Shown here piece after piece: positions 21,422 to 51,650 of a stretch of 51,650 nucleotides of DNA. Source of the stretch: a phage. The notes beneath the pieces were generated by a model, which had not been told where the DNA came from, ran no database searches, and worked only from the letters and a program-made list of their open reading frames with translations. Made by a program: the position numbers and the translations under genes. The first letter of the stretch is position 1, and every line of letters begins with the position of its first letter. Location: the NCBI GenBank assembly GCA_019844455.1, contig GCA_019844455.1_3938.1. The stretch is one strand, 5' to 3'.

Positions 21422-21428
21422 AGTTTAA

Positions 21429-21453
21429 GGCTCCCGTAAAAAGGAGCCTTTTT
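21429..21453. terminator. bidirectional intrinsic terminator between convergent operons
   Basis: GGCTCC / GGAGCC stem with 8-nt loop, T-run on plus strand and A-run (T-run on minus) flanking. Confidence 0.7.
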
Positions 21454-21457
21454 GTTT

Positions 21458-22357: not shown

Positions 22358-22358
22358 A

Positions 22359-23161: not shown

Positions 23162-23677
23162 CTATTTAACCTCAAAAACTGGTTCAAGAACCAATATAAA
23201 GTCTACACAGTCATCTTCTTCATCCAGAATACCATCAAAGTTCTTAGGAACGAAGTCGAAGAGGTTCATCACAAAACAGTCAGAAGTAACCTTTATAGTT
23301 CCTCCCATGTTCTCTACAGTTAACACTGTACGACTTTCTTTTACCTCCCTCAGAAGATTACCCACAAAGTCATCTAAGAAGTACTTCATCAATGACTTAA
23401 AACCTTTAGGATAATCTGTACCAGAGTATGTTTCAATCTGAGGTACAAGCTTAACATCTATACTAGTCTTTGTTAAGAATGTGTTAGAGAACATACTATC
23501 AGGTAGCTTACAAACAGTCTTTCCAGTACCTTCATGTTCAATCTCAACAAAACCAGCTTCGTCGCCACATGTAACTATTTTAAAAGATGCTTCATTCTCA
23601 TACTGTGAAGCCATAAACTTTTTAAGCATTTCTTTAAGGAAATCTGCATGAGCATCTTGTAAGTAGATATCAATCAT
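23162..23677 (-). CDS. hypothetical protein
   Basis: ORF with AGGTGA RBS 6 nt before ATG at 23677 (track start at 23683 is TTG); acidic C-terminus. Confidence 0.5.
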   Translation of the reverse strand: MIDIYLQDAHADFLKEMLKKFMASQYENEASFKIVTCGDEAGFVEIEHEGTGKTVCKLPDSMFSNTFLTKTSIDVKLVPQIETYSGTDYPKGFKSLMKYFLDDFVGNLLREVKESRTVLTVENMGGTIKVTSDCFVMNLFDFVPKNFDGILDEEDDCVDFILVLEPVFEVK

Positions 23678-23690
23678 AATCAATCACCTA

Positions 23691-24050
23691 TTATGGGAAC
23701 AAGCACTTAATGTCATCGTTTTTAAAAACGAAACTTGTGTAGTTGTGACCTTCAACATCCAGCCAAACAGCCTGAACATCTACACCATCAAGGTTGTGGT
23801 AAAGTTCTTTGATGAAGTGGTCTTTCACAATCTGGCTGCTAGTTGTTTCCAGCTTAATGTTCGAGATTGCTGAACCTACAGCCATATAGCCCATGACACG
23901 TTTCTTCTCAGTATGCTTAATCTTACCATCTTTGTAAGCCATAATGAGATTGGAGAGAATCTTCACACCATAATACTTTTCAAGGTGAGTGGGTACGCCA
24001 TAAAAACCTAATGCGAAGTTTTCAGAGTGGATAATGTTTTCACGTTTCAT
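23691..24050 (-). CDS. hypothetical protein
   Basis: 119-aa ORF, RBS AAGG. Confidence 0.5.
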   Translation of the reverse strand: MKRENIIHSENFALGFYGVPTHLEKYYGVKILSNLIMAYKDGKIKHTEKKRVMGYMAVGSAISNIKLETTSSQIVKDHFIKELYHNLDGVDVQAVWLDVEGHNYTSFVFKNDDIKCLFP

Positions 24051-24051
24051 A

Positions 24052-24351
24052 TTAATCTGCCAACCTTAAATTAAAATTAACACCAAATTTTTCACAAACT
24101 TCCAACATATACTCAAGGGAGACGTTACCAGTGAGATGGATTATGTTGGATACACGAGCCTGAGAGATACCACAAATTTTAGCGACTTGCTCTTGAGAAA
24201 GACCTCTGGATTTAATCTCTCTCTTAAAACGATGTGCAACGAAATCTCTCATTTCGTCTACATCCATTGGACAAATATAACTCTCCATTTCAGCCTCTCT
24301 ATCAGCCTCCCAATCATCTTGTGGGGCATAAGGGTCAAAAACCTCATTCAT
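24052..24351 (-). CDS. XRE-family helix-turn-helix DNA-binding protein
   Basis: C-terminal LSQEQVAKICGISQARVSNI HTH; likely ATG start at 24351 (MNEVFDP) overlapping the upstream gene's stop (ATGAATGA). Confidence 0.65.
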   Translation of the reverse strand: MNEVFDPYAPQDDWEADREAEMESYICPMDVDEMRDFVAHRFKREIKSRGLSQEQVAKICGISQARVSNIIHLTGNVSLEYMLEVCEKFGVNFNLRLAD

Positions 24352-24556
24352 CTTTCTTCTTCCGTTTGCGTGAAGTGTCAATCAATGAATCTATGTTTGT
24401 AGCCCTAACCTTTTCACGTTCATCATTAAGATAATCATCAAGAGCCTTTTCAATCTGTGAATCATCTTGACAGATAACTGTAAAGACTGTAAAGCCGTCT
24501 GTATCGTCAATTACCTTACCATAACCGCTTCTGGGATGTAACTTTTTAAGAGCCAT
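24344..24556 (-). CDS. small protein translationally coupled to HTH gene (weak HicB-like resemblance)
   Basis: 70 aa; segment YGKVIDDTDGFTVFTV...IEKALDDYL loosely resembles HicB-type antitoxin N-domain; basic tail RKRKKKDE. Confidence 0.4.
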   Translation of the reverse strand: MALKKLHPRSGYGKVIDDTDGFTVFTVICQDDSQIEKALDDYLNDEREKVRATNIDSLIDTSRKRKKKDE

Positions 24557-24557
24557 A

Positions 24558-24941
24558 TCAAATACCTGTGCAGCTTCTGTTTTCTAAGAAATACTCAACA
24601 CCATACATAGCTTTTTGCATCAAATCTTCTTTAAACTGAATACGATGATTGAGCATAGCCTGTACATCAATATCATCAGGGTGCTTCTCTTTAATGTTTG
24701 CAGATTGCAGGAAATACTCTGCAAGAACACGATACTGATAGTCAGTTACCTTATCAGTCATCTCTGTTAAAGACTCTTCAGAGATTGGTTTAAGTAGTTC
24801 ACCTTTAGATAGGGCAACACCTTTAACAATCTGGCAAGTGTCTTCTGGAACACCTGATAAGTCCACATTTGGAAGTTCTGTTGCACTAACTGGTAAACTC
24901 ATTGCCATAACCGTTGCAGCAGCTAATAAAATCTTTTTCAT
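24558..24941 (-). CDS. secreted/periplasmic protein with signal peptide
   Basis: MKKILLAAATVMAMSLPVSA signal peptide; two Cys in mature part; RBS GAGGT. Confidence 0.55.
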   Translation of the reverse strand: MKKILLAAATVMAMSLPVSATELPNVDLSGVPEDTCQIVKGVALSKGELLKPISEESLTEMTDKVTDYQYRVLAEYFLQSANIKEKHPDDIDVQAMLNHRIQFKEDLMQKAMYGVEYFLENRSCTGI

Positions 24942-24986
24942 AATGACCTCAAAGTTATATTAAATTTTGTATTACATTGAGTATAA

Positions 24987-25033
24987 AAATAAGCTATAAC
25001 ACCTGACTTGTCAACAGACTTTATAGCTTATTT
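24987..25033. repeat. 13-bp perfect inverted repeat flanking a TTGACA-containing 21-nt spacer
   Basis: AAATAAGCTATAA (24987-24999) and TTATAGCTTATTT (25021-25033); on minus strand followed by T-rich tract. Confidence 0.7.
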
Positions 25034-25189
25034 GGCAGATTTTTTATAAGGCTACTGCCATCCTTCCATACCAGACCACACTATGCAAAACCAGACTTCA
25101 CATCACATTACCGTGCAATACATGACTTAAAAACCCTCTTAGAAGACTCTTAAGTGATGCTGGTGAGTACCCGTTGGTTTATGCTGCGC

Positions 25190-25217
25190 AGTATACTCAC
25201 CAAATTTTCTATGTCAA
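25190..25217 (-). promoter_or_regulatory. candidate sigma70-like promoter (minus strand)
   Basis: Minus strand reads TTGACA-N16-TATACT; would transcribe toward the 24941 gene through a ~240-nt leader. Confidence 0.35.
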
Positions 25218-25372
25218 CAACTTTATATAAAAGTCCTGATAGCTATATGTGTTACAAAACAGAAGACTGTGAACAAGACACCCATTGCAAAGGATGTGTT
25301 CAAAAGTTTACTTGTTATGTAAGACAATACAAAGACAACTAATGCAAACAGAATGATTGTGCTTAACATAGT

Positions 25373-26473
25373 TTACTCATAATCCCTGATAACGAGACCA
25401 ACAGGGAACTGTAAAGACCCCTTACGAGTCATCTTCTGGAACTGAACCGTTAAAGGTTTCCCGATAAACTCTTCAGGATGCTCAGCAAGATACTGTTTCT
25501 TCTCACGAGTAGTCTTCCATGAGACATCTACAAAGACGTTAGGAAGAGTCTCTACAACGAACTTGCCATGACCACGTTTATCGGTCTTTACACCAGTCAC
25601 TTTAAACTCTTCAGTGTGCATCTTCTTATGCTTAATCAAGAAGTATGAACGGTGACAACACTCATAGAAAGATTCTTCAGAGATTGAACGGTACATTGCA
25701 CCTTCAAACTTAGCTTCAACCCACTTATCATGAGCTTCATCAAACTCTTCCCAAGAATTTACACGGATAGTCTGTACAGGAACCACTCTACAGGTATCCC
25801 CAAGCTCAACAATAGGTGAACTATCAATAACTTCACGACGCTCAGGCCAAGATTTTGAATTGTCACAGATATCATACCAGTAGAATTTAAGAAGGTGACG
25901 GTCTGGATTGTCAGCATTCTTAATCATAGATACAATATCTTCTAAGTCCCAACCATGAGCATAAATCTCACCATCAAAGTCTTCAACTTGTGGATGTAAT
26001 TTAAGCAACAAAAGCAAATCTGGGATTAGTTCTGTTGGAACGTTGTAAACAGTATTCTCACGAGAATAAGCCGTGAAACTAACTGAATCAGCATCTCTTG
26101 AAATTCTACAACGGACACCATCAAGTTTTGGTTGAGCATCAGCAGGGAACTTCAAATACTTTGCATGACTAACCTTTGCAGCATCATGAGCAAGCTGTAC
26201 ACCTACCTTCTCAGTATTCTGTGCAGACTCTTTTGTGTAAGCATAACCTTTACGGTCAACTTGCTTTTTATACTTAGCAGCAACTTCAAAGAGAGCTTGC
26301 TGTTCAGCATTACGCTCATTCTTTTTACCGATGTTTTTAGGTTCTGCTGTATACTCTTCAAACATCATCTTGCCATTTTCTTTACCGTAGGTTGTAATAA
26401 CTTTGTCACCTACAGCAACACATGACCAAACGTTGAAGGAACCATCTTTATTTTGTTTGTACAGAATTGTCAT
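25373..26473 (-). CDS. ATP-dependent DNA ligase
   Basis: Motif I KLDGVR (PKLDGVRC); size ~366 aa typical of small phage ATP ligases; RBS GAGG before second ATG (MTILYK). Confidence 0.75.
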   Translation of the reverse strand: MTILYKQNKDGSFNVWSCVAVGDKVITTYGKENGKMMFEEYTAEPKNIGKKNERNAEQQALFEVAAKYKKQVDRKGYAYTKESAQNTEKVGVQLAHDAAKVSHAKYLKFPADAQPKLDGVRCRISRDADSVSFTAYSRENTVYNVPTELIPDLLLLLKLHPQVEDFDGEIYAHGWDLEDIVSMIKNADNPDRHLLKFYWYDICDNSKSWPERREVIDSSPIVELGDTCRVVPVQTIRVNSWEEFDEAHDKWVEAKFEGAMYRSISEESFYECCHRSYFLIKHKKMHTEEFKVTGVKTDKRGHGKFVVETLPNVFVDVSWKTTREKKQYLAEHPEEFIGKPLTVQFQKMTRKGSLQFPVGLVIRDYE

Positions 26474-26666
26474 TTTTAACCTCTGAGTGATACCAAGTAT
26501 TGCAAGCATTACATGCGTAAAGCTCTAAGTCATTTTTATCTGGTTTATGGAAACAGTTTGACCCACAACGACACCGGAATAGCTTACCATCAACACGAAG
26601 AATAAATGTTTCAAGCTCACCATCTTCTGTAAGAACTGCGTTCTTAAATTTATCTTCTACAGTCAT
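26448..26666 (-). CDS. small zinc-ribbon protein
   Basis: 72 aa with CRCGSNC ... CNACN cysteine clusters. Confidence 0.45.
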   Translation of the reverse strand: MTVEDKFKNAVLTEDGELETFILRVDGKLFRCRCGSNCFHKPDKNDLELYACNACNTWYHSEVKNDNSVQTK

Positions 26667-26869
26667 TTTCTCTTACCACCAATCTCTACGTCGATAACTT
26701 GAACATCGCCAGCAACATCAAACTTATGAATGATGCTTTCCACAGTGTAAGTCCAACCATCAATGCGAACCAACTCACCTTCTCGTGGGACGATTGGATT
26801 ACGTTGAGCTACGGTTGTAGTGGAGTGAACAACATCATAACGATAGGTATAGTTTACTAGGACTTCCAT
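26663..26869 (-). CDS. hypothetical small protein
   Basis: ORF 26663..26968 trimmed to internal ATG (MEVLVNY) to avoid 89-nt overlap with lipoprotein gene; start uncertain. Confidence 0.35.
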   Translation of the reverse strand: MEVLVNYTYRYDVVHSTTTVAQRNPIVPREGELVRIDGWTYTVESIIHKFDVAGDVQVIDVEIGGKRK

Positions 26870-26879
26870 CGTGAAAACC

Positions 26880-27137
26880 TCACTCAATAACCGTAGTATG
26901 TGATTGTCCATTTTTGCCATAGCTGTAAGATGTTGTTGTTTGAGAGTTTGGACATCTGACAACAACAATATCCCTGCTTATAGCGTCACCATTGAGTTTG
27001 TAGATTTTGCAGTCTTGCATCTCTGGAGGTAGGCTGTAAGAAGCATCTTTGTTTTCATAAGAAGGGTTGCAGCCAGCCAGAAAAATTACTCCAAGTGCAA
27101 CCATTACTTTCACACAACTCTTAATCTTATTGTTCAC
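26880..27137 (-). CDS. putative lipoprotein
   Basis: GTG start; signal peptide with lipobox FLAGC (MNNKIKSCVKVMVALGVIFLAGC). Confidence 0.55.
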   Translation of the reverse strand: MNNKIKSCVKVMVALGVIFLAGCNPSYENKDASYSLPPEMQDCKIYKLNGDAISRDIVVVRCPNSQTTTSYSYGKNGQSHTTVIE

Positions 27138-27273
27138 GATAGTCTACCTCTCTGTATGTTTTTAAATAGTGGGTGATGAGTTCTGGTAATTCACTACGTT
27201 TAACGTTTGAACGAAGAAGTGTCCAGTCAAAACCTTTACCAACCCTTCCCCAGAGACTGTACAGTTTCTTCAT
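27127..27273 (-). CDS. candidate small basic protein (46 aa), not in ORF track
   Basis: ATG at 27273 forms ATGA overlap with stop of upstream 77-aa gene; MKKLYSLWGRVGKGFDW...; below 60-aa cutoff. Confidence 0.3.
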   Translation of the reverse strand: MKKLYSLWGRVGKGFDWTLLRSNVKRSELPELITHYLKTYREVDYREQ

Positions 27274-27503
27274 ATCAACTCCAGAATATCAATACGTTCA
27301 CCCTTAAGGACTCCTGTACGGTCTCTTGCAATCTTACCGTCAACGATAAGGATATGCGCGACCTTTAAAGCCTCACGATTAAAACCTTTTAAGAACTTGC
27401 TAGGCATCACGACAATGGACATCTCCTGAATCAACTCTGGAGTATAGCAATTGTCATGAAGTTGCTGAATAACGTCTGCAAGTGTCATTTTTGGTGTCTC
27501 CAA
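27270..27503 (-). CDS. hypothetical small protein
   Basis: 77-aa ORF in compact co-directional cassette. Confidence 0.45.
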   Translation of the reverse strand: METPKMTLADVIQQLHDNCYTPELIQEMSIVVMPSKFLKGFNREALKVAHILIVDGKIARDRTGVLKGERIDILELI

Positions 27504-27694
27504 TACTCAATGTCAATAAGTTCTTGTGCAATGCTTTTCAGATTACCTTTCAAGAAAACCTTCTCAGAACCTGAAAGAGATGAATTGTCAATTAACCTGT
27601 TCATTCTCTCAAACAACTTCTGCTTACGGTTCTTGATAGTTTCCTTTGAAGCACCTTTCATCATTGCTGCATGGGTTCTTCCACGGTGACTCAT
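27485..27694 (-). CDS. hypothetical small basic protein
   Basis: 69-aa ORF, Lys/Arg-rich. Confidence 0.4.
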   Translation of the reverse strand: MSHRGRTHAAMMKGASKETIKNRKQKLFERMNRLIDNSSLSGSEKVFLKGNLKSIAQELIDIEYWRHQK

Positions 27695-27745
27695 AAGCCC
27701 TCCTATACAAGATGTAGTATAAGGTACTCTTCCCTGAGCACCTTG

Positions 27746-28297
27746 TCAACTTAGTTTTGCAAACTCTCCGTGGAGTTTCATAGCAGCTTCACAGTAAGCT
27801 TTATGGGCTTCTTCTGGTGTGTCAAACATACCAAGATGATAGTTTTTACCTTGTAAACGTATCATTGCTCGAAACCTTTTACTTATCTTCTGTACACCTT
27901 TTGGCAACCCAGATGGGGACTCTCTTGACCGATTGCAAGAGTTTTGTGAAGCTGTACAAACCCTTAAATTCAAGTACCTATTGTCCCAACCGTCCCCATT
28001 CTTATGGTCAACCTGTAAGGTTTTATCAGGTAGATATCCATCCATATACAAGATAACTAAACGATTTGCTTGGTAACCCCTTCCATCAATCAGCAACTGA
28101 ACTGACTTGTGTCCATCAGTATTTGTTCTGTAGTTTCCAGCCCTCTTACCTCCAAATCTAGAGTTAAAGTTTGCATTACCTTCTCTAAACTTCCAAGTAA
28201 AGACCCCTGTTTCGGGGTCGTAGTCCAATAGCTCCTTAAGACGAATTTCTGTAATCATTTCAACACCATCAATGTACTTCCAACCAGCTCTTACCAA
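27746..28297 (-). CDS. HNH homing endonuclease with C-terminal AP2 DNA-binding domain
   Basis: HNH core VDHKNGDGWDNRYLNLRVCTASQN; AP2-like KRFRAMIRLQGKNYHLGMFDTPEEAHKAYCEAA; immediately downstream of DNA polymerase; start may be ATG at 28258. Confidence 0.8.
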   Translation of the reverse strand: MVRAGWKYIDGVEMITEIRLKELLDYDPETGVFTWKFREGNANFNSRFGGKRAGNYRTNTDGHKSVQLLIDGRGYQANRLVILYMDGYLPDKTLQVDHKNGDGWDNRYLNLRVCTASQNSCNRSRESPSGLPKGVQKISKRFRAMIRLQGKNYHLGMFDTPEEAHKAYCEAAMKLHGEFAKLS

Positions 28298-30968
28298 CCT
28301 TACCTGTGCCAGTTACAAGCGTCTCACTCTTCAAACCTAAATTCTTAGATGCCTGACCATACATCCAGTCAGTTATGGCTTTAACTTCTTGAGTCATACT
28401 TTCTGGGCATTCCCAACTGTTTTCATCGTGGTATGCCAGCAAAAGCCTAGCACCAATTGCTGGTTTTCGTCCATTTAATTTTGTCAATCCTTCTTCACAT
28501 GCTCTTCTACAAGCAAGGTTAATTGCCTCATTTTGAATCTGAGCCTCTGAACCCATGAGCAAATAATTCAATAACTTATGTGGAGATTTACACCACAACC
28601 AAGCTCCAGCAACCTTTACAAAACCCCCTTTAGAGATTGCAGCAGTCTTACCAAACACCTCTTCAAGTGCCTTTTTAGTCGCTTTGTAGTCAGCTTCCAA
28701 GTTATCTAATAGTTTCTTAATCTTTGGCAAACGCACAAAGTAAGTCTGTTTAGTTAATGCACCTTCCTGAGTAGTGGCCGCCTTAATAGTTTTAGCAAAC
28801 TTCTCATCACCTGCACCGAACAGCAGTGCATAGATACCATTCTTAGCTTTCTTACGACCTTTGCTAATCTCATGAAGAAGATTCTCATCCTGAGTAGCTC
28901 GACAAGTCAAGATATCCTGCTCATCATTCAAGCTAAAGTAAATACTGTTCAGTGTATGTGCATCAGTCCCTGAATAGACAACGTACAGGTCATTCTCAGA
29001 GTCATAGCGAAGGTACTTATCAACCTCTGGGTTTAGGTACTCATCAAAATGTTTGCAGTAATAGCGTCCATCTTCTTGACGAATAAACTCAATCTCTTCT
29101 TTACCTTGCGTTACCGCTTTGGTGAAGTCTTTGTCACCCATAAAGTTACAAAGGAGAACTAGCTGGGCTGAGTTCATGTCTACAGAGACAACATTAGTAC
29201 CTTCTTCACAAATCCACACTGCCCTCATTGGTTCCCCATAGACAGCCGCACCAGACGGTACGTTTACAATACCATATTGTGTCATACGTCCAGTTGAAGT
29301 ACCAAATACCATTGCACCAGCACTAAGGCGACCATCTGGACGAATCTGGTTTAGCCAACCTTTTTCATCATCCTTTGAGTTCTCAATGGTTCTGCGTCGG
29401 TGCATCAAAGTATAGTATTTAGCAATCTTCTGTCCAAGCTCACCTTCAATCGTATCATAAGAAGATTCAGTAAGTTTTGGTGAAGTACGGATTAAGCAAG
29501 GTTCAAGCAAATCCGTGTACTTCTTCACAGACCAGTTATGTTCGATGTACTGGACACCTTCGTGTTCAACATAACTCAACCCACACCGTTCAACCATCTC
29601 CTGCCACTTAGGATGCTTTGTAATCATCTTTTTGTTGTCTTTGAAACGACAAACTTTGACAGGGCGACCGTCTGAATCTTTCTTGTAGTTCCAGTCATCT
29701 GGAATCCAACCAACTGATTTCAAGTAGTCTTTAACAACTGCTACCTGAGTCATACGAGAAACTTCAAACTCAATTGGTGTATATGGTGCATCAATCAATC
29801 CTGTGTAGCGACTTGACTCAAGCTCAAAGTGGTTAACAACATGACTGTTATAGTACTTCACAGTTTTAACTGTTTTTACTGGCTTCCAGTCTTTGCATTT
29901 CTTACCAATCTTTGCATTCAACTCATTGCAAATTGCACGAGCATCCTTCATTGCTACAAAACCCTCCTTGTACTCTTCACCAGTTACAGAGTTGGTTGGT
30001 GTATAGCAATTTCTCTTTTCAATGTTAAAAATCTTTGTAGTTGGCTTACCAAATGGCTTGATTTCATATGTCTGCATCTCACCGTTACGTACCTGCTGAC
30101 GATACTTTGTCTTAGGGTACTTGGTAATTCTCTTCAGTCCATCTGCGTGACCAAATGCTTCAACATACTCATTCCAAGCTTTTGCAAACTCTTCTCCAGT
30201 GACTTTACCTTTGGTCTTAATAGTTGGAGGAAGATGTGGTTCAACTTCTGAAGCAAGCTCATTAGTCAACTTGTCAAGTTCCTTTACATGGAACTCCATA
30301 AGCTCTTTATCAGCTTTCCAACCATTGATAGCTTGTTGACTCATCCAGAAAGATGTTTCTTTAGCTCGCATATAGGTTTCATAAGTGTCTATGCCACACT
30401 TCTTTAGCTTGAGATACTCATTATCCAGTGCGCGTTTAGTTTTGGCGTTAATACGGATATCTTCCACAACACGAGTGAAGATTTCTGCATTCCACACACC
30501 CCAATGTTCAATCTCTGGTTTACGGACACCAACACGAGCACCCCATGCAGCCAAGCCATGAGCACCTTTATAGCCTTTTGGAGTTGGTCTATCCATCCAC
30601 TGAACACGAGACTGGATAAGAGAATCCTGAAAGAAATTACTCCACGGCTTACACTTTGGATTATCAAAGTTCCATAAATCAGGTGCAATGTGATTGAAAA
30701 CCCACCAGTCATAACCCAGACCATTATGGATGCAAAGTCGTTTTGCCTTTAACGCAAACTCAATACCTTCACGCAAACCACCCTTGATGTACTTGGTGTA
30801 TTTGTGACCGAGGATAGGCTCATCTGTAAAGACCCATACAGGTGGCTCTTCATCGTCAGATTTATAGTCTGCGAAAGCCATTACGTGCACTTTAGTGAAC
30901 TCAAGGAGTAAACCATCAGTTTCTGTATCACCAACTAAATGTAAGTTTTTAAAATCTACGTTTTCCAT
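28269..30968 (-). CDS. DNA polymerase, family A (Pol I-like) with 3'-5' exonuclease domain
   Basis: Exo I motif VGDTETDGL; motif B-like KKAKNGIYALLFGAG; motif C LLAYHDENSWE; RBS GAGGGAG before ATG at 30968 (MENVDF). Confidence 0.85.
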   Translation of the reverse strand: MENVDFKNLHLVGDTETDGLLLEFTKVHVMAFADYKSDDEEPPVWVFTDEPILGHKYTKYIKGGLREGIEFALKAKRLCIHNGLGYDWWVFNHIAPDLWNFDNPKCKPWSNFFQDSLIQSRVQWMDRPTPKGYKGAHGLAAWGARVGVRKPEIEHWGVWNAEIFTRVVEDIRINAKTKRALDNEYLKLKKCGIDTYETYMRAKETSFWMSQQAINGWKADKELMEFHVKELDKLTNELASEVEPHLPPTIKTKGKVTGEEFAKAWNEYVEAFGHADGLKRITKYPKTKYRQQVRNGEMQTYEIKPFGKPTTKIFNIEKRNCYTPTNSVTGEEYKEGFVAMKDARAICNELNAKIGKKCKDWKPVKTVKTVKYYNSHVVNHFELESSRYTGLIDAPYTPIEFEVSRMTQVAVVKDYLKSVGWIPDDWNYKKDSDGRPVKVCRFKDNKKMITKHPKWQEMVERCGLSYVEHEGVQYIEHNWSVKKYTDLLEPCLIRTSPKLTESSYDTIEGELGQKIAKYYTLMHRRRTIENSKDDEKGWLNQIRPDGRLSAGAMVFGTSTGRMTQYGIVNVPSGAAVYGEPMRAVWICEEGTNVVSVDMNSAQLVLLCNFMGDKDFTKAVTQGKEEIEFIRQEDGRYYCKHFDEYLNPEVDKYLRYDSENDLYVVYSGTDAHTLNSIYFSLNDEQDILTCRATQDENLLHEISKGRKKAKNGIYALLFGAGDEKFAKTIKAATTQEGALTKQTYFVRLPKIKKLLDNLEADYKATKKALEEVFGKTAAISKGGFVKVAGAWLWCKSPHKLLNYLLMGSEAQIQNEAINLACRRACEEGLTKLNGRKPAIGARLLLAYHDENSWECPESMTQEVKAITDWMYGQASKNLGLKSETLVTGTGKVGKSWLEVH

Positions 30969-31028
30969 TTTTACTCCCTCTAAAATCATTAACCTCATAC
31001 ATTACTGCAAAAAATTATAAAAAGCAAG

Positions 31029-44159: not shown

Positions 44160-46304
44160 ATGAACAAAGTACAGATTATTAAAAAGAATGGCTCACTTGA
44201 AGAACCTGATATCAAAAAAGTTTTAGCAGCAGTAACTAAGTCAGCTAACAGGGTTGGGTATAGAGAACTTCCACCAGATGTTACCCAAGCTCTTGAGTCA
44301 GCATTTATGAGGATTCTGGTAAAGTCCACTAAGCAGAATAATTTACTAATCTCGGTAAATGATATTCACAGTATTGTTGAGGGTGCTTTGGCAGAAGTTA
44401 ATCACGAGATTTATGAGTCTTACTCAACATATAGAAATTACCGTAAAGAGGTTGCTCAAAATTGGGATGCACTCTACCAGAAGACTAAAGATACACTCTT
44501 CTTAGGTGACCGTGAAAATGCTAACTTTGACAGCAGTTTAATTTCTACGAAAGGTTCAATTATCCGTGGTTACCTGACTAAAGAAATCTTTAAACAGTAT
44601 CATCTAACACCAGAGGAACTTGAAGCCATTGAGAAAGGCTTTATCTATATCCACGATTTGAGAGACCTGATTTTTGGTGGTATTAACTGTTGCCTGTTTG
44701 ACATTGGTAAAGTACTAAAAGGTGGCTTTGAAATGTCCGGCATTGAGTACTGTGAACCTAAATCTGTACTGTCAGCATTGCAGGTTATTGGTGACGTAGT
44801 ACTTTCAGCAACTGCACAGCAATTTGGTGGTTTTACTTTAGCAGAGATTGATAAGGTACTTGTACCGTATGCTAAGAAGTCTCTACGCTATCATGCTGAG
44901 AAAGCAGCATCTTACGGTATTCCTAAAGAACATTACCATAACTATGTCATGGAGCAGCTACAGATTGAATTAACTCAAGGCTTCCAGTCACTAGAGATGA
45001 AACTAAATACTGTACCTTGCAGCCGTGGTGATTTTGCATTCACAACTTTAACATTTGGGCTACTTGACTCAGATATGTCTAATGAAGACAACCGACTACA
45101 ATACATGATTGCAAGTACTCTCCTAGATGTTCGTATGAATGGACAAGGTAAGAGCAAAAAACCTGTTGTATTCCCTAAACTGGTTTATATCTATGACCAG
45201 AAGAGACATGATGAAAATATCTGTCAAGGTCACCTGTACAGTAAAGCTATTGAGTGTTGCTCTAAAGCGATGTATCCAGATTTCTTAAGCGTATCTGGTC
45301 ATGGTGCTGTAGCAGAAGCTTTTGAGCGTTCTGGCAAGGTAATTTCACCGATGGGTTGCAGAGCCTTCTTATCTCCATATCTGAATGAGGATGGGGAAGA
45401 GTTCTATGTTGGTCGTGCTAACATTGGCGCTGTATCTTTGAACTTGCCAATGATTTACCAGTATTCTAAAGAGAATGGTTTAGATTTCTGGAAAGAGCTT
45501 GATAAGTACCTAGAGATGATTCGCAGCTTCCACAAGAAACGCTACGAAATGATTGCTAATATGCCAGCAAGTTCTAACCCTCTTGCGTTCACACAAGGTG
45601 GTCTGTACAAAGGAACTAAGAAACCTACTGACAAGGTTGGTTGGGATATTGTGAAGTCCTTCACAGCTTCTTTTGGTGTTACTGCGCTTGATGAGTTGTC
45701 TGTTCTTGCTGAAGGTAAACGACTTCATGAAGTTGGAAGCTATAGTTTTGCATATGATGTTCTGGCATACATTAACATGAAAACCGAAGAGTTTAAAAAT
45801 GAAGATGGCTTCTTATATGCCGTCTATGGTACTCCAGCAGAATCACTATGTGGGACTCAGCTAAAACAGTTCAGAGATATGTTTGGGGTTATCAAAGGTG
45901 TTTCCGATAAGGAATACTTTACAAATAGTTTCCATATGAATGTTGCAGCAGACATCTCACCATTTGAGAAGCAGGACTTAGAAGAGCCATTCTTCCATAT
46001 CTGTAGAGGCGGTAGAATCCAGTATGTAAGAGTAGCTAACCCAGAAAACTTAACAGCACTTAAAAGTTGTATTACAAGAGGTATGTTGAAAGGTTTCTAT
46101 CAGGGACTTAACTTTGACTTAGCAATCTGTGAACATTGTGGTAACAGGCCAAAGGCTGATGTTGAAGAATGTGAAGTTTGCCACTCACATGATATCTCTG
46201 TGATTAACAGGGTGTGTGGGTATCTTGGATGGACTAAGATTAAAGGTGAATCCCGAATGAACGATGCAAAAATCGCTGAGATTCGTGACAGAGTTTCTAT
46301 GTAA
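44160..46304 (+). CDS. nrdD: anaerobic ribonucleoside-triphosphate reductase (class III)
   Basis: N-terminal ATP-cone, C-terminal zinc ribbon CEHCGN...CEVCH and glycyl-radical motif RVCGYLG. Confidence 0.9.
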   Translation: MNKVQIIKKNGSLEEPDIKKVLAAVTKSANRVGYRELPPDVTQALESAFMRILVKSTKQNNLLISVNDIHSIVEGALAEVNHEIYESYSTYRNYRKEVAQNWDALYQKTKDTLFLGDRENANFDSSLISTKGSIIRGYLTKEIFKQYHLTPEELEAIEKGFIYIHDLRDLIFGGINCCLFDIGKVLKGGFEMSGIEYCEPKSVLSALQVIGDVVLSATAQQFGGFTLAEIDKVLVPYAKKSLRYHAEKAASYGIPKEHYHNYVMEQLQIELTQGFQSLEMKLNTVPCSRGDFAFTTLTFGLLDSDMSNEDNRLQYMIASTLLDVRMNGQGKSKKPVVFPKLVYIYDQKRHDENICQGHLYSKAIECCSKAMYPDFLSVSGHGAVAEAFERSGKVISPMGCRAFLSPYLNEDGEEFYVGRANIGAVSLNLPMIYQYSKENGLDFWKELDKYLEMIRSFHKKRYEMIANMPASSNPLAFTQGGLYKGTKKPTDKVGWDIVKSFTASFGVTALDELSVLAEGKRLHEVGSYSFAYDVLAYINMKTEEFKNEDGFLYAVYGTPAESLCGTQLKQFRDMFGVIKGVSDKEYFTNSFHMNVAADISPFEKQDLEEPFFHICRGGRIQYVRVANPENLTALKSCITRGMLKGFYQGLNFDLAICEHCGNRPKADVEECEVCHSHDISVINRVCGYLGWTKIKGESRMNDAKIAEIRDRVSM

Positions 46305-47356: not shown

Positions 47357-47842
47357 ATGAATTACATGGAGATTCGACCATTTGACACAGCTAATGGTGA
47401 AGGGGTTCGTGTAAGCCTCTTCGTAGCTGGTTGTAAGCATCACTGTGAAGGTTGCTTTAATAAGGAATCTTGGAAGTTTAATGCTGGTAAAGAGTTCACT
47501 TATGCAAACCTTTATGGCATCATTAAGTTAATGGATGATAATGCCATCAGTGGGCTGTCAATACTTGGTGGAGAACCTCTAGATGATAGAAATATTCAAG
47601 AGGTTACCAACATATGCAAACGTATTAAAACCGTTTACCCAGAAAAATCTATCTGGCTCTGGACAGGTTTTCAGTTACATGAAAAAATTCACCTTGATGT
47701 GATGAAATATGTTGACGTGGTGATTGATGGTAAGTATGATTCATCTAAACCAACAGTTAAACCGTATCGTGGTTCAGATAACCAAAACCTCTGGAGAAAA
47801 GAGTACGGATGGCAAGGTGATTGTCAGTGGAGAGCAGAGTGA
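47357..47842 (+). CDS. nrdG: anaerobic ribonucleotide reductase activating protein (radical SAM)
   Basis: CKHHCEGC (Cx3Cx2C) radical-SAM cluster near N-terminus; ~160 aa typical of NrdG. Confidence 0.85.
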   Translation: MNYMEIRPFDTANGEGVRVSLFVAGCKHHCEGCFNKESWKFNAGKEFTYANLYGIIKLMDDNAISGLSILGGEPLDDRNIQEVTNICKRIKTVYPEKSIWLWTGFQLHEKIHLDVMKYVDVVIDGKYDSSKPTVKPYRGSDNQNLWRKEYGWQGDCQWRAE

Positions 47843-48213: not shown

Positions 48214-48525
48214 ATGAGCAAAATCTATAACACTCGTAAATTACAGATTGCAATCCTGTGCCAGTTTATGGCTGATAAGCACAACTCACACTATTGTGGT
48301 ACAGGTTTCCTTATGCAAGGTCGTGGCTACATTAGCTTCAAAGAAGCTGTGAAGATGTACAATGAGCACCCTGAAGATGACAAAGAGTTGAAACAACTGA
48401 AGCTTACTTATGACAAGAGGCGTAAGAAAATTGTATGCTTGAACAACCTTATCAAGCAAACTGAAAACGTTTATGATGCAATTGGTGAAGAGGGTTTCTT
48501 AAAAGTCTTGAAAATAGCTCAGTAA
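48214..48525 (+). CDS. hypothetical protein
   Basis: 103-aa ORF followed by strong terminator. Confidence 0.45.
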   Translation: MSKIYNTRKLQIAILCQFMADKHNSHYCGTGFLMQGRGYISFKEAVKMYNEHPEDDKELKQLKLTYDKRRKKIVCLNNLIKQTENVYDAIGEEGFLKVLKIAQ

Positions 48526-48576: not shown

Positions 48577-49092
48577 ATGTATCTGTCAAATCTGAAACGT
48601 TCTGCTGCAATGTCAGTGTTAAGACTCAGTTTTGAGGAACGTCAAGAGTTCATTGACTCCCACCAATACGACCCTTCCAACTCCAATCACATGATTCTCT
48701 GGAATCGTGAGAGTACTCGTGAAAGAGCATTATTTCGATATTACCCACACTACACCATAGATAATCTGTATGAATGTTTTGTTGTGAAGAACACCATTAC
48801 AGTACTCAATAAACTTTGCAGATACACAGGCAGTCAATCCTTCACATTAGGTCATCACAAACCTGTTACAAAAGGTGGTGAACATCACTGTGCAAACTGG
48901 TTTATCCAAACTAAAGCTGATAACCAGAAGCAAGGAGATAGCCTCCTAAGTATCCCTAAGATGACCTATGAAGAGCAAGAGAAATATATCAAAAATAATA
49001 TGCCAGATGTGCTTGACAACAACTATACAGATTTGGCAATATCTCTCCTGTTGAAGTTCGAGACAGTTTATAGGGCAACTTATAATGGCTAA
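48577..49092 (+). CDS. putative HNH-family endonuclease
   Basis: GHHKPVTKGGEHHCANW resembles HH-x2-P-x3-GG-x5-N HNH core; RBS GGAGA. Confidence 0.45.
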   Translation: MYLSNLKRSAAMSVLRLSFEERQEFIDSHQYDPSNSNHMILWNRESTRERALFRYYPHYTIDNLYECFVVKNTITVLNKLCRYTGSQSFTLGHHKPVTKGGEHHCANWFIQTKADNQKQGDSLLSIPKMTYEEQEKYIKNNMPDVLDNNYTDLAISLLLKFETVYRATYNG

Positions 49093-49363
49093 AGAAAAGT
49101 GGCAGATTTTACCATTAGTCAGTGAAGGAGGTAATGGTTGTGAAATGTACATGATACGTGGTCATGTTCCAGAGCCAATTGCACTTGAGATGGTAAACAA
49201 CTTTACAGATGGTTCTTACAAAGACTTAGGCGAACCAACTGTCAAGCAACAATGGGTTAAACCTGTACCAGACAGCACAGGTAACTGTAGTGTACTTTAT
49301 CACGTTGTAGACCCTGCAAAATGCAAATCTGCAATGGCAGTAACAAACGTAACTTTTGATTGA
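49085..49363 (+). CDS. hypothetical protein
   Basis: 92-aa ORF. Confidence 0.4.
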   Translation: MAKEKWQILPLVSEGGNGCEMYMIRGHVPEPIALEMVNNFTDGSYKDLGEPTVKQQWVKPVPDSTGNCSVLYHVVDPAKCKSAMAVTNVTFD

Positions 49364-49374
49364 GAGAGAAAACT

Positions 49375-50256
49375 ATGAAAACATCTATCCGTGTTACAGT
49401 TCATTCACCAACTAAAGGAACTCATGAAGAAGAGTTTAACATCATCCAATTTCCTTCTGGTGAGATTGGTGGACACTTTTCGCCAGAGTTTGTTGATTTC
49501 ACTGCTTATGCAGCATCATCCATCAACAATGTGATTATGATTGTAAAAGGTTATGATAAGGATACATTGTTTGCTGTGGCACTTGCTAAAGAAGCAATTG
49601 ATGATTTAATTCCTCATGATTATGCTTTAAAGACTGTCATCTTTTACTACTTACCAAATGCACGTTATGACCGTCACATGTTTAAAGGCGACGCAGCAGC
49701 TTTAAAGGTTTTTGCTAAACAGGTAAATGCAATGGGATTTGGTGCAGTCTGTGCAGTTGACCCTCACAGCTATGTACCAGATAACCTGTTTAACTGCTTC
49801 CAGAGTATTCCTCAAAAGGAAATTGCAGTCCACTATGCAAATGACCCACTGATTGATTACTTAGTAGCCCCAGATGCAGGTGCTGCTAAGAAGATTGCAG
49901 AGACTGCTAAAGAGGTGGATAAACCATATATCACAATGTCTAAAGTACGCAACCTTAAGACTGGTGAAATTACTGGTATGCGAATTCTTGATGATGTTGA
50001 TTTGACAGATAAAACCGTCATGATTCTGGATGATATCTGTGATGGTGGTCGAACCTTCATAGAAGCAGCTAAACATCTTCGTGAAGCAGGTGCAAAACGT
50101 GTGGAACTCTATGTAACACACGGTATCTTCTCTAAAGATGTTGAAAACCTTCTTGACAATGGCATTGACCACATCTACACTACAAACTCTTTAGGGGAAG
50201 CTAAAGACCGTGGCTTAACACATTATGGTCAAGTTACTGTAGCAAACCTTGATTGA
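49375..50256 (+). CDS. prs: ribose-phosphate pyrophosphokinase-like protein (Prs family; possible ADP-ribose pyrophosphokinase)
   Basis: Prs-like domain order incl. FPSGEIGG, YLPNARYDRH, AVDPHS, and PRTase loop MILDDICDGGRT; ATG at 49375 with GAGAGAG RBS. Confidence 0.75.
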   Translation: MKTSIRVTVHSPTKGTHEEEFNIIQFPSGEIGGHFSPEFVDFTAYAASSINNVIMIVKGYDKDTLFAVALAKEAIDDLIPHDYALKTVIFYYLPNARYDRHMFKGDAAALKVFAKQVNAMGFGAVCAVDPHSYVPDNLFNCFQSIPQKEIAVHYANDPLIDYLVAPDAGAAKKIAETAKEVDKPYITMSKVRNLKTGEITGMRILDDVDLTDKTVMILDDICDGGRTFIEAAKHLREAGAKRVELYVTHGIFSKDVENLLDNGIDHIYTTNSLGEAKDRGLTHYGQVTVANLD

Positions 50257-50265
50257 AACTTTATA

Positions 50266-50286
50266 GGGGCTTAAAAGCCCCATTTT
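50266..50286 (+). terminator. stem-loop/terminator between Prs-like and NAMPT-like genes
   Basis: GGGGC-TTAAAA-GCCCC followed by ATTTTG. Confidence 0.5.
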
Positions 50287-50301: not shown

Positions 50302-51650
50302 ATGACTAAATCACTTTATGCAGTACCAGCAGGTTTAAACGCAGATGCTTACAAATCTGGTCATGTTTACCAGTACCCTAGTGCAACAGAGTACTTGATG
50401 TTCAACCTGACACCACGTAGTGATAAATGGTTTAACAGCCCTTTAGCAATTGACGGTGTAGTGGCTTTTGGTATTCAACGTTTTGTTAAAGATTACTTGA
50501 TAGACCACTGGAATGCCACTTTCTTTGAACGTGATAAAAAAGAAGCCATTGATGAAATCTTAGAAGTCATGAATGGTGTTCTGGGTAAAGATGCTATCGG
50601 TCGAGAGCATTGGGAAGCACTTCACGACTTAGGTTATCTACCAGTTGAAGTATACGCTGTAGAAGAAGGTACAGTTGTTCCTATGCGTGTACCAATGATT
50701 GTCTTCCAGAACACTGTTTCAGGTTTCCATTGGGTAGCGGGATATCTGGAAGATGCTTTCTCTGCTGAGATTTGGAAGGCTTGTACCATTGCAACTATTG
50801 CATTGCATTATAAACGCATCTGTAAGAAGTGGGCTGACCTTACTTGCGACAATGACTTACATTTACCTTATCAGTGCCATGACTTTGCTATGCGTGGTAT
50901 GTCCGGCTTTACTGATGACGCATTTAACGCTGTAGGCCACTTAACCAGCTTTAAAGGGACTGATAGCTTCCCCGCTGTATATACAGCTAAACGCATCTAC
51001 GGACAGTCTTACCCAGTCTCTGATATTGGTGGTTCTGTACCAGCCACTGAACATTCTGTAATGTGTGCAAACATTGCTTGGGAAGGTGGTAACGAGTTGA
51101 TTGAAGAAGAAAGACGCTTTAAAGGTGAGTTACAAACCTTCCGTCGTTTCTTAACAGAAACTTACCCAACTGGTATTGCAAGTGTTGTTTCAGATACTTA
51201 TAACTTCTGGAGAACTGTATCAGTCATATTGCCAGAACTCCGTAAAGAGATTATGGAACGTGATGGCAAACTGGTAATTCGTCCTGATTCTGGAGACCCT
51301 GTACATATTGTCACAGGATACAAAGCAATCCATTTAGAGTGTGCTAAAAAGGCTTATTACGAACACCTAAGTAAGCTGGAAGCCAGCGACACAATGCTGA
51401 ATGCTGTTCTGAACATGAAGCTTGAAAACATCAATTATGGTATTGCTGGATGGCTACTGTCAGAAGGTTACGAAATGGTTGTTGACAGAGAAGACTTTGA
51501 AGTTGCTGATACAGTGCTGTTGAAAAATGCTTATATGGTTGGTTCTGCAAACGTTGTAACACGTCCTGTAGCAGAGATTGATGGAGCTATTAAGACCCTG
51601 TATAACATCTTCGGAGGGACTATCAACTCCAAAGGTTTTAAGGTACTGGA
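50302..51650 (+). CDS. nadV: nicotinamide phosphoribosyltransferase family protein (NAMPT/NadV-like), 3' end beyond window
   Basis: DAYKSGHVYQYP, FAMRGMSG, SFKGTDSFP, SVPATEHS, VVSDTYNFW, IRPDSGDP match conserved NAMPT segments; frame open to window end. Confidence 0.8.
   Translation, partial: MTKSLYAVPAGLNADAYKSGHVYQYPSATEYLMFNLTPRSDKWFNSPLAIDGVVAFGIQRFVKDYLIDHWNATFFERDKKEAIDEILEVMNGVLGKDAIGREHWEALHDLGYLPVEVYAVEEGTVVPMRVPMIVFQNTVSGFHWVAGYLEDAFSAEIWKACTIATIALHYKRICKKWADLTCDNDLHLPYQCHDFAMRGMSGFTDDAFNAVGHLTSFKGTDSFPAVYTAKRIYGQSYPVSDIGGSVPATEHSVMCANIAWEGGNELIEEERRFKGELQTFRRFLTETYPTGIASVVSDTYNFWRTVSVILPELRKEIMERDGKLVIRPDSGDPVHIVTGYKAIHLECAKKAYYEHLSKLEASDTMLNAVLNMKLENINYGIAGWLLSEGYEMVVDREDFEVADTVLLKNAYMVGSANVVTRPVAEIDGAIKTLYNIFGGTINSKGFKVL

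What the first reader, a model, noticed from the sequence alone, without database searches (positions are those of the whole stretch)
49375..50256. Prs-like protein has non-canonical substrate-binding loops
Canonical class I PRPP synthetases carry an invariant ribose-5-phosphate loop D-x-x-D-T-G-G-T and a flexible-loop Q-x-Q-G-F-F-D element after the DLH catalytic histidine (E. coli Prs: VDLHAEQIQGFFD, DDMIDTGGT). Here the corresponding segments read AVDPHSYVPDNLFNCF and LDDICDGGRT. The catalytic His and the PRTase fold signature are kept, but the residues that contact the ribose 5-phosphate differ. That is what one would expect if the acceptor were a bulkier ribose derivative such as ADP-ribose rather than ribose-5-phosphate.
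Basis: partly seen in the sequence, partly recalled or inferred. Interest (0 to 1): 0.6.

Follow-up and report, generated by a model that had tools for sequence, protein, structure and literature searches.

The report
Phage ADP-ribose pyrophosphate synthetase (Adps, NARP1)

Summary
The ORF at 49375-50256 (293 aa) carries AVDPHSYVPDNLFNCF and LDDICDGGRT where E. coli Prs has VDLHAEQIQGFFD and DDMIDTGGT. The window comes from a Felixounavirus, 97.9% identical in nucleotides to E. coli phage SP22. The gene is the positional orthologue of bas63_0079 of phage Bas63 (79% aa identity). The next gene (from 50302, cut by the window end) is 98% identical to bas63_0080. These two genes are the founding NARP1 operon (Osterman et al.). 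Adps makes ADPR-PP from ADP-ribose and ATP, and Namat joins ADPR-PP to nicotinamide to give NAD+. The window protein keeps every residue that the 2026 ICP1 Adps structures implicate: F26, R97, H131, D167, K190, D219, D220 and the C222-T227 PP loop. It also lacks the canonical C-terminal helices. The DD[IL]CD loop and DPHS are family-wide signatures, and 74 of 80 viral loci carrying the loop have a Namat-like gene downstream. Two caveats apply. The segment after the His is not an R5P contact and is also degenerate in R5P-using archaeal class III enzymes. The altered loop binds the ATP donor in Adps rather than making room for ADPR. Verdict: already known, low interest.

The parts
49375..50256 (+). 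adps: ADP-ribose pyrophosphate synthetase (PRPS-like), 293 aa
   Evidence: It is 100% identical to the phage SP22 protein and 79% identical to Bas63 gp79 (Adps) at the same genome position. Pfam gives PF00156 and PF14572. The AlphaFold model has pLDDT 92.2, and its best PDB matches are PRPP synthetases with TM 0.72-0.78.
49362..49369 (+). Shine-Dalgarno-like GAGAGAGA, 6-13 nt upstream of the adps ATG
   Evidence: Read directly from the sequence. The same GAGAGAG precedes the namat ATG.
49753..49800 (+). Residues 127-142, AVDPHSYVPDNLFNCF: catalytic His131 inside the Adps-type D-P-H-S motif, followed by a degenerate former allosteric-site/PROSITE-signature segment
   Evidence: D129, H131 and S132 are invariant in 48 homologues. 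H131 aligns with ICP1 H121 and E. coli H131. H121A lowers ICP1 activity.
49642..49701 (+). Approximate RF-loop region (residues ~90-109) with P94, R97, D99, R100 and F103
   Evidence: R97 aligns with ICP1 R87, an ADPR adenine contact. F103 lies one position from ICP1 F92. P94, R97, D99 and R100 are invariant. The loop boundaries are inferred by offset from ICP1 L80-P99.
49936..49986 (+). Catalytic beta-hairpin (residues 188-204) with the essential Lys190 (nt 49942-49944)
   Evidence: It aligns with the ICP1 A183-L199 hairpin, and K190 aligns with ICP1 K185. K185A abolishes ADPR-PP formation. K190, R192 and G197 are invariant. The model has strands at 185-192 and 199-204.
50026..50055 (+). Residues 218-227, LDDICDGGRT: D219/D220 (distal-ribose contacts) and the PP loop C222-T227 (ATP-donor phosphate binding in Adps)
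   Evidence: It aligns with ICP1 D212, D213 and the C215-S220 PP loop. The family signature is DD[IL]CD[GA][GA]x[TS]F. All canonical Prs examined have DDxxDT[GA]GT instead.
50266..50281 (+). Conserved intercistronic hairpin GGGGCUUAAAAGCCCC in the 45-nt adps-namat spacer
   Evidence: Fold energy -12.9 kcal/mol, z = -2.9. The stem is kept in Bas63 and in lineages whose proteins are only ~75% identical. Its role is not established; it could be a partial terminator or a stabiliser.
50302..51650 (+). namat: nicotinamide ADPR-transferase (NAMPT-like). The first 449 of ~593 codons are present; the gene is cut by the window end.
   Evidence: It is 98% identical to Bas63 gp80. Pfam gives PF18127 and PF04095.

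Best explanation
[quoted passage not shown] When a host defence NADase (SIR2-HerA/Nezha, DSR1/2, type I Thoeris and similar) splits NAD+ into ADP-ribose and nicotinamide, Adps transfers the beta,gamma-pyrophosphate of ATP to the 1''-OH of the terminal ribose of ADP-ribose. This yields ADPR-pyrophosphate and AMP. The downstream enzyme Namat then replaces the pyrophosphate with nicotinamide and regenerates NAD+. The enzyme is a PRPP-synthetase fold that has been repurposed. The ADPR adenosine lies in the ancestral nucleotide site (F26, R97, F103) and its distal ribose in the ancestral R5P site (D219, D220). The remodelled PP loop (C222-T227) and the beta-hairpin carrying K190 hold and align the ATP donor. 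The C-terminal helices and the allosteric sites of housekeeping Prs are lost, so the enzyme is not feedback-controlled as Prs is. Shown here: orthology, synteny, the fold, and conservation of every implicated residue. Shown in the literature for homologues: the chemistry and the anti-defence phenotype. Inferred: that this particular allele has the same activity.
For: The window is a Felixounavirus. Gene order from nrdD through nrdG to the 171-aa ORF, the 92-aa ORF, the Prs-like gene and the NAMPT-like gene matches Bas63 genes 67-80. The protein is 79% identical to Bas63 gp79, and its partner is 98% identical to gp80. Bas63 genes 79-80 are the genetically and metabolomically defined NARP1 operon, and the SpbetaL1 and ICP1 homologues make ADPR-PP in vitro. 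The protein is 37% identical to ICP1 Adps. All ICP1 functional residues map onto identical residues, except that the aromatic contact F92 sits one position off, at F103. DPHS and DD[IL]CD are invariant in the family. Of 80 viral loci carrying the loop motif, 74 have a Namat homologue downstream on the same strand; at least three of the six exceptions have under 1.5 kb of downstream sequence. The literature figure for this adjacency is 97%. The protein fails every NCBIfam Prs equivalog cutoff (for example 103 against 296 bits) and only just passes the broad TIGR01251 subfamily model (121 against 113 bits; E. coli Prs scores 423). The C-terminal alpha11-alpha12 segment of canonical Prs is absent, which the ICP1 paper calls a defining signature of the family.
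Against: No assay exists for this allele. The tested Felixounavirus enzyme (Bas63) differs at 33% of positions in the N-terminal 150 residues. The Bas63 protein itself was never purified; the in-vitro chemistry comes from homologues that are much more distant. ICP1, the only one aligned here, is about 37% identical over the matched region. The PP loop here (GGRT) differs from that of the solved ICP1 enzyme (GAAS), so the donor contacts are inferred. Residual activity on R5P is not excluded for this protein.
Confidence: 0.93

Rival explanations
1. It is a genuine, if divergent, PRPP synthetase that supplies PRPP to a phage NAMPT to make NMN, which host NadR or PncC then converts to NAD+. This is the database annotation.
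For: Every GenBank record annotates the pair as ribose-phosphate pyrophosphokinase plus nicotinamide phosphoribosyltransferase. Pfam, PHROG and TIGR01251 name it this way. The fold and the catalytic His, Lys and Asp residues are those of Prs.
Against: Bas63 still overcomes SIR2-HerA in a host lacking pncC and nadR. ADPR-PP appears only when genes 79-80 are present. The purified homologue gave no measurable product in the PRPP-synthetase-type assay. The R5P 5-phosphate loop DTGGT is replaced. All Prs equivalog cutoffs are failed. No NMNAT motif G.F.P.H.GH was found in the window or in the 24-kb Bas63 stretch, though this covers only part of each genome.
Confidence: 0.03
2. It is a promiscuous pyrophosphokinase. 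ADPR is the main acceptor, but this allele also accepts R5P or other ADPR-like ribosides, so it feeds both NAD+ and nucleotide synthesis.
For: The acceptor ribose site (D219, D220, H131) is ancestral and unchanged. Namat itself keeps PRPP-dependent NMN synthesis in vitro. The N-terminal domain, which supplies the adenine contacts, comes in deeply divergent alleles.
Against: SpbetaL1 Adps gave no measurable product in the PRPP-synthetase-type assay, and Adps cannot use ADPR-1''-phosphate. In Adps the ancestral ATP site is occupied by the ADPR adenosine and the donor site is rebuilt, which makes the canonical R5P/ATP geometry unlikely.
Confidence: 0.06
3. It is a catalytically inactive PRPS-associated-protein-like subunit that only scaffolds or regulates the NAMPT-like enzyme.
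For: The structure search also returns human PAP39, a non-catalytic PRPS paralogue, at similar scores.
Against: All catalytic residues are invariant (K190, H131, D167, D219, D220, R97). The ICP1, SpbetaL1 and DyoEdafos homologues are active enzymes.
Confidence: 0.01

Closest known systems
Adps of E. coli phage Bas63 / JohannRWettstein (bas63_0079, QXV81770.1), NARP1 (Osterman et al., bioRxiv 10.1101/2024.02.11.579819)
   Same: Same genus, same genome position, same length (293 aa) and the same 45-nt spacer with the hairpin before namat. The C-terminal domain, PP loop, beta-hairpin and all mapped catalytic residues are identical. The Namat partner is 98% identical.
   Different: The N-terminal 150 residues are only 67% identical, with nucleotide identity of 64-76% against ~95% in the flanks and saturated synonymous divergence. 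This is a different, ancient N-terminal-domain allele.
Adps of Vibrio phage ICP1 (UniProt F1D1Q1): apo, ADPR/ATP and ADPR-PP/AMP structures (PMC13586617)
   Same: PRPS-like two-domain fold. F18/R87/H121/D161/K185/D212/D213/C215/D216 correspond to F26/R97/H131/D167/K190/D219/D220/C222/D223. The DPHS motif is shared, the C-terminal alpha11-alpha12 is missing in both, and a Namat gene lies downstream in both.
   Different: Identity is 37% over residues 65-274. The PP-loop tail is GGRT here against GAAS in ICP1. The donor-capping F223 of ICP1 is E230 here. The N-terminus is poorly alignable.
Class I PRPP synthetase (E. coli Prs, human PRPS1)
   Same: Same fold (TM ~0.74-0.78). The catalytic His, the Lys of the catalytic loop, the ARxDR motif and the DD of the PRTase motif are shared. 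The chemistry is also shared: pyrophosphoryl transfer from ATP to a ribose C1 hydroxyl.
   Different: About 20% identity. DLHxxQxQGFF is replaced by DPHS plus unrelated sequence, and DTGGT by DGGRT with Cys in place of Ile/Val. The C-terminal helices are absent. Equivalog cutoffs are failed. In characterised homologues the acceptor is ADPR and not R5P.
Class III archaeal PRPP synthases (S. solfataricus 4TWB, T. volcanium 3LPN/3MBI, M. jannaschii 1U9Y)
   Same: These are the best sequence matches among solved structures (E = 4e-18 to 4e-12). They are similar in length (~285-290 aa), have no C-terminal extension, and the segment after the catalytic His is likewise non-canonical.
   Different: They keep the R5P loop D-D-I-I-S-T-G-G-T and use R5P (my own knowledge of the literature). 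No Namat partner was examined for them.
NARP2 (Vibrio phage KVP40 Nampt + Nmnat)
   Same: Also a phage NAD+ restoration pathway built around a NAMPT-family enzyme.
   Different: NARP2 consumes host PRPP, needs an NMN adenylyltransferase and has no Adps. Here an Adps is present and no NMNAT motif was found in the sequence examined.

Membership tests
Adps (NARP1 ADPR-PP synthetase) | Sequence placement with experimentally defined Adps proteins rather than with housekeeping Prs | tested here: met
   It is 79% identical over the full length to Bas63 gp79 and 37% identical to ICP1 Adps, against ~20% to E. coli or human Prs. No phylogenetic tree was built here; the published tree places Bas63-type proteins in a well-supported Adps clade.
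Adps (NARP1 ADPR-PP synthetase) | A Namat (NAMPT-like) gene in the immediate vicinity (97% of the clade) | tested here: met
   The NAMPT-like ORF starts 45 nt downstream and is 98% identical to Bas63 Namat. In addition, 74 of 80 motif-bearing viral loci have a Namat homologue downstream.
Adps (NARP1 ADPR-PP synthetase) | Remodelled PP loop, conserved across Adps homologues, in place of the canonical DTGGT | tested here: met
   The window has DDICDGGRTF and ICP1 has DDICDGAASF. C222 and D223 are invariant in 48 homologues.
Adps (NARP1 ADPR-PP synthetase) | Catalytic beta-hairpin lysine (ICP1 K185) and the acceptor-site residues R87, H121, D161, D212, D213 | tested here: met
   K190, R97, H131, D167, D219 and D220 are all present and invariant.
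Adps (NARP1 ADPR-PP synthetase) | Loss of the C-terminal alpha11-alpha12 module of PRPS | tested here: met
   The alignment ends ~22 residues before the E. coli Prs C-terminus and no equivalent helices are present.
Adps (NARP1 ADPR-PP synthetase) | Enzymatic activity: ADPR + ATP gives ADPR-PP + AMP, with no PRPP from R5P | not testable with these tools
   This is known only for the homologues SpbetaL1, ICP1 and DyoEdafos in vitro, and for Bas63 in vivo.
Adps (NARP1 ADPR-PP synthetase) | PRPS-like hexamer (trimer of dimers) | not tested
   Only a monomer was modelled.
Class I ribose-phosphate pyrophosphokinase (Prs) | PRPP-synthase signature D-[LI]-H-x-x-Q-x-Q-G-F-F (PROSITE PS00114, pattern recalled from memory) | tested here: not met
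   The window has D-P-H-S-Y-V-P-D-N-L-F. All five canonical sequences examined carry the signature.
Class I ribose-phosphate pyrophosphokinase (Prs) | R5P 5-phosphate loop D-T-[GA]-G-T | tested here: not met
   The window has D-G-G-R-T preceded by Cys.
Class I ribose-phosphate pyrophosphokinase (Prs) | Curated family score cutoffs (NCBIfam) | tested here: inconclusive
   It passes only the broad subfamily model TIGR01251 (121.3 against 113 bits, residues 87-292). It fails all equivalog models, for example PRK00934 at 103 against 296 bits.
Class III archaeal PRPP synthase | Retained R5P loop S-T-G-G-T despite the missing allosteric signature | tested here: not met
   S. solfataricus and T. volcanium have DDIISTGGT, and the window has DDICDGGRT.

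The most novel reading that the evidence does not exclude
The Adps N-terminal domain behaves as an exchangeable cassette. At least three deeply diverged allele classes (65-78% aa identity, saturated synonymous sites) sit on a nearly constant C-terminal catalytic domain and Namat, and natural recombinants exist. This domain carries the adenine contacts and forms the hexamer core. The pattern could therefore mark an unrecognised layer of the NAD+ arms race, such as host factors that target Adps, or alleles tuned to different ADPR-derived acceptors, rather than neutral mosaicism.
Probability: 0.1. Interest if true: 0.5.

Novelty: already known. Interest (0 to 1): 0.15.

Why it matters
The finding adds nothing new about the system. 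NARP1 was described in 2024 in a phage of the same genus, and structures of both enzymes were published in 2026. Its practical value is for annotation. More than a thousand phage records, including all close relatives of this window, still call the gene "ribose-phosphate pyrophosphokinase", and NCBIfam TIGR01251 still admits it. The invariant DPHS and DD[IL]CD motifs, together with a downstream NAMPT-like gene, give a simple rule to re-label these genes as anti-defence genes. The operon here has only two genes, with no Macro-domain Adpp and no RyDEP accessory gene upstream. The genes downstream of namat lie outside the window and were not checked. If none is present there either, this phage should counter ADPR-producing NADases but not aRES-type defence, which yields ADPR-1''-phosphate.

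Tried and rejected
1. Solved Adps structures. The ICP1 Adps coordinates (codes given in PMC13586617) are in neither the PDB sequence copy nor the Foldseek library. Both return only PRPP synthetases, so I could not superpose the model on the ADPR/ATP complex.

2. Motif-to-family test. The related-loci scan used the DD[IL]CD[GA]G[RG] loop itself as its search pattern. Those 80 loci therefore cannot test whether the motif defines the family. I used them only to ask whether motif-bearing genes sit next to Namat.

3. Phage-encoded canonical Prs. I looked for these as controls. Most high-scoring hits are bacterial contamination in 'phage' assemblies or come from jumbo phages. The four I used all carry the canonical motifs, and the Microcystis phage record has no NAMPT gene annotated in the flanking 3 kb. 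The huge-phage record is unannotated and its flanks were not searched.

4. Accessory genes. I looked for Macro-domain (Adpp) or RyR-domain (RyDEP) genes among the four ORFs upstream of adps and found none.

5. Positive selection. I considered it as the cause of the divergent N-terminal half and rejected it. Synonymous sites are saturated (pS 0.80), so this is an old allele moved by recombination.

6. Start codon. I rejected TTG 49360 in favour of ATG 49375.

I reran it without them.

8. The tRNA and Rfam scans of the window found nothing.

Full report
**What is there**

The finding covers an ORF on the + strand from ATG 49375 to the TGA at 50254-50256, encoding 293 aa. A GAGAGAGA ribosome-binding-like run lies 6-13 nt upstream of this ATG. 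The alternative TTG at 49360 overlaps the stop of the preceding ORF and is not the start annotated in relatives.

I read the E. coli K-12 prs gene from its genome record. Four other canonical Prs sequences carry the same two motifs.

**Where the window comes from and what the neighbours are**

The region is 97.9% identical in nucleotides to Escherichia phage SP22, and 96-97% identical to wV8, HY02 and many other Felixounavirus phages. The protein is 100% identical to the SP22 product.

A second ORF begins at 50302, forty-five bases downstream, and runs off the end of the window with 449 codons visible. It is NAMPT-like, with Pfam PF18127 and PF04095. Upstream lie nrdD (44160-46304), nrdG (47357-47842) and small ORFs of unknown function. 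The window holds no tRNA gene and no Rfam family.

**Identification**

The literature library holds the description of NARP1, the 'NAD+ reconstitution pathway 1'. It was discovered in BASEL phage Bas63 (JohannRWettstein), genes 79-80, which had been annotated as prs and nicotinamide phosphoribosyltransferase.

I located that genome (MZ501086, a Felixounavirus) in the phage collection. Its gene order from nrdD through nrdG to a 171-aa ORF, a 92-aa ORF, gene 79 (293 aa) and gene 80 (593 aa) is the same as in the window. The window protein is 79% identical to gp79 with no gaps. The downstream ORF is 98% identical to gp80.

The published evidence is as follows.
- Deleting genes 79-80 sensitises Bas63 to SIR2-HerA.
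- ADPR-pyrophosphate appears only in defence-expressing cells infected by the wild-type phage.
- The phenotype does not need host PncC or NadR.
- Namat converts ADPR-PP and nicotinamide to NAD+ and prefers ADPR-PP over PRPP.

**Residue-level check against the solved enzyme**

A September 2026 paper reports Vibrio phage ICP1 Adps in apo, ADPR/ATP and ADPR-PP/AMP states. I fetched the ICP1 gene and aligned it with the window protein, Bas63 gp79 and canonical Prs. Every residue the paper implicates has an identical counterpart here, with one near-miss.

| ICP1 residue | Window residue | Role in ICP1 Adps |
|---|---|---|
| F18 | F26 | ADPR adenine contact, from the neighbouring protomer |
| R87 | R97 | ADPR adenine contact |
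| H121 | H131 | Acceptor-site residue conserved with PRPS; H121A lowers activity |
| D161 | D167 | Acceptor site |
| K185 | K190 | Essential hairpin lysine |
| D212/D213 | D219/D220 | Distal-ribose contacts |
| C215-S220 | C222-T227 | PP loop |
| F92 | F103 | Aromatic contact; the window residue is one position off |

The C-terminal alpha11-alpha12 module of canonical Prs is absent, which the paper calls a defining signature of the family.

An AlphaFold model built on 48 homologues is confident (pLDDT 92.2). It matches PRPP synthetases with TM 0.72-0.78, the best match being human PRPS1 with ATP and R5P. Confidence is lower exactly in the RF loop, the beta-hairpin and the PP loop. The ICP1 coordinates are not in the libraries available, so a ligand-level superposition could not be done.

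**Are the loop variants a family property?**

In 120 database homologues and two curated alignments (35-81% identity), the following positions are invariant: D129, H131, S132, D219, D220, C222, D223, G225 and T227. The consensus motifs are DPHS and DD[IL]CD[GA][GA]x[TS]F.

A scan of viral contigs found more than 570 loci encoding such proteins. Of the 80 retrieved, 74 carry a Namat homologue downstream on the same strand. At least three of the six exceptions have under 1.5 kb of downstream sequence. This agrees with the published figure of 97%. Because the scan used the loop itself as its pattern, this result tests co-occurrence with Namat and not the specificity of the motif.

NCBIfam places the protein only just above the broad TIGR01251 cutoff (121 against 113 bits; E. 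coli Prs scores 423). It falls far below every Prs equivalog cutoff. This explains why all database records still call it ribose-phosphate pyrophosphokinase.

The conclusion, ADP-ribose instead of ribose-5-phosphate, is right. Two points of the argument are not.

First, the segment after the catalytic His is not the flexible loop and not an R5P contact. From my own knowledge, it belongs to the PROSITE signature and allosteric-site region. The best sequence matches among solved structures are archaeal class III PRPP synthases, which use R5P, and they also lack it: S. solfataricus has VVEPHKPEELSYF and T. volcanium has TVDIHDEKTLSY, while both keep DDIISTGGT. So that change tracks loss of allosteric control, which the ICP1 paper documents for Adps, and not acceptor choice.

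Second, according to the ICP1 structures, ADPR lies on the conserved ancestral surface. Its adenosine occupies the old ADP/ATP site and its distal ribose the R5P site. The altered PP loop now grips the phosphates of the ATP donor. The loop substitution therefore rewires donor binding rather than enlarging the acceptor pocket.

**Rival explanations**

- A genuine PRPP synthetase feeding a NAMPT. The Bas63 genetics and metabolomics, the lack of any product from the homologue in the PRPP-synthetase-type assay, the lost DTGGT loop and the failed equivalog cutoffs all speak against this.
- Residual promiscuity towards R5P or other ribosides. This is not excluded for this allele but has no support. 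Adps does not accept ADPR-1''-phosphate.
- An inactive PAP39-like subunit. The invariant catalytic residues exclude this.

**Things noticed on the way**

- The adps gene is a domain-level mosaic. Nucleotide identity to Bas63 is ~95% in the flanks and in namat, and drops to 64-76% between about 49,370 and 49,820 (residues 1-150). Synonymous sites there are saturated, while the C-terminal domain has dN/dS of 0.10. At least three N-terminal allele classes and natural recombinants exist.
- A GGGGCU-NNAA-AGCCCC hairpin in the adps-namat spacer is conserved even in lineages with ~75% protein identity.
- Some relatives carry an HNH homing-endonuclease ORF between the two genes.
- Bas63 nrdD is interrupted by an intron carrying a homing endonuclease, whereas the window's nrdD is intact.
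- One PHROG profile is matched by both Adps and Namat in adjacent, non-overlapping parts, which suggests fused versions exist.
- The four ORFs upstream of adps contain no Macro-domain (Adpp) or RyR-domain (RyDEP) accessory gene, so on the upstream side this is the minimal two-gene NARP1. Genes downstream of namat lie outside the window.
- In Cronobacter, a chromosomal Adps-like/NAMPT-like pair sits next to a divergently oriented NrtR-type regulator (NUDIX plus WHD_NrtR).

**Verdict**

The sequence observation is real and the functional guess is correct, but the system is already described: genetically in a phage of the same genus, and biochemically and structurally in homologues. I score novelty as 'already known' and interest as low. 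The remaining value is in correcting the annotation. The N-terminal-domain allele mosaic is a minor open point.

Noticed in passing
window 49370-49820 (Adps residues 1-150) against L007:14747-15200: adps is a domain-level mosaic. Identity to Bas63 falls from ~95% in the flanks to 64-76% in nucleotides (67% in amino acids) over the N-terminal domain only. Synonymous sites are saturated (pS 0.80), while the C-terminal domain has dN/dS of 0.10. At least three N-terminal allele classes exist in Ounavirinae, together with recombinants such as P0002, which combines a Bas63-type N-terminal domain with a window-type C-terminal domain.
   Followed up: partly
window 50266-50281: A GGGGCUUAAAAGCCCC hairpin lies in the 45-nt spacer between adps and namat (-12.9 kcal/mol, z = -2.9), followed by AUUUUG. 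The stem is conserved in Bas63 and in lineages whose proteins are only ~75% identical. It could be a partial terminator, an attenuator or an mRNA stabiliser inside the 'operon'.
   Followed up: partly
L014:4891-5382 (also L017): In some close relatives (Adps 96% identical) a 163-aa HNH-type homing-endonuclease ORF (motif EIDHIDLDKSNNKLENLRL) is inserted between adps and namat and replaces the hairpin spacer.
   Followed up: partly
window 44160-46304 against L007:8631-11517: The window's nrdD is one uninterrupted 714-aa ORF. Bas63 nrdD is annotated as joined from two pieces, with a homing-endonuclease gene (bas63_0068) inside. The intron is therefore absent here.
   Followed up: no
window 48577-49092 and 49085-49363: The two ORFs immediately upstream of adps (171 aa, phrog_3500, with a weak HNH-like match at E = 1e-4; and 92 aa, phrog_4726) have no known function, are syntenic with Bas63 gp77/gp78, and overlap by 8 nt. 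Neither has a Macro or RyR domain, so no known NARP1 accessory enzyme lies upstream.
   Followed up: partly
window 49375-50256 and 50302-51648 against phrog_12872: A single PHROG profile of 547 positions is matched by Adps (profile positions 49-224) and by Namat (positions 235-339). This suggests that fused Adps-Namat proteins exist in some phages.
   Followed up: no
L094:4082-7353 (Cronobacter malonaticus chromosome): A chromosomal Adps-like gene (its family's loop reads DDLCDAGGTF; ~48% identity over the C-terminal domain) is followed by a NAMPT-like gene, called as two pieces. It sits next to a divergently oriented gene for a NUDIX + WHD_NrtR regulator, in an ordinary chromosomal neighbourhood (crp, prk, kefB). 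NrtR regulators respond to ADP-ribose (my own knowledge), so this looks like a host-side, ADPR-regulated NARP1-like operon.
   Followed up: partly
window 47861 and 48231-48521 against L007: Relative to Bas63, the window lacks a ~100-200-nt segment after nrdG, where Bas63 has bas63_0074. It also carries a strongly divergent allele (55-73% nucleotide identity) of the 103-aa DUF7390 ORF at 48214-48525.
   Followed up: no
window 21000-31000: This is a block of minus-strand genes with negative GC skew (-0.13 to -0.21), between two plus-strand blocks. It includes a 909-aa ORF at 28269-30998. I did not examine it.
   Followed up: no
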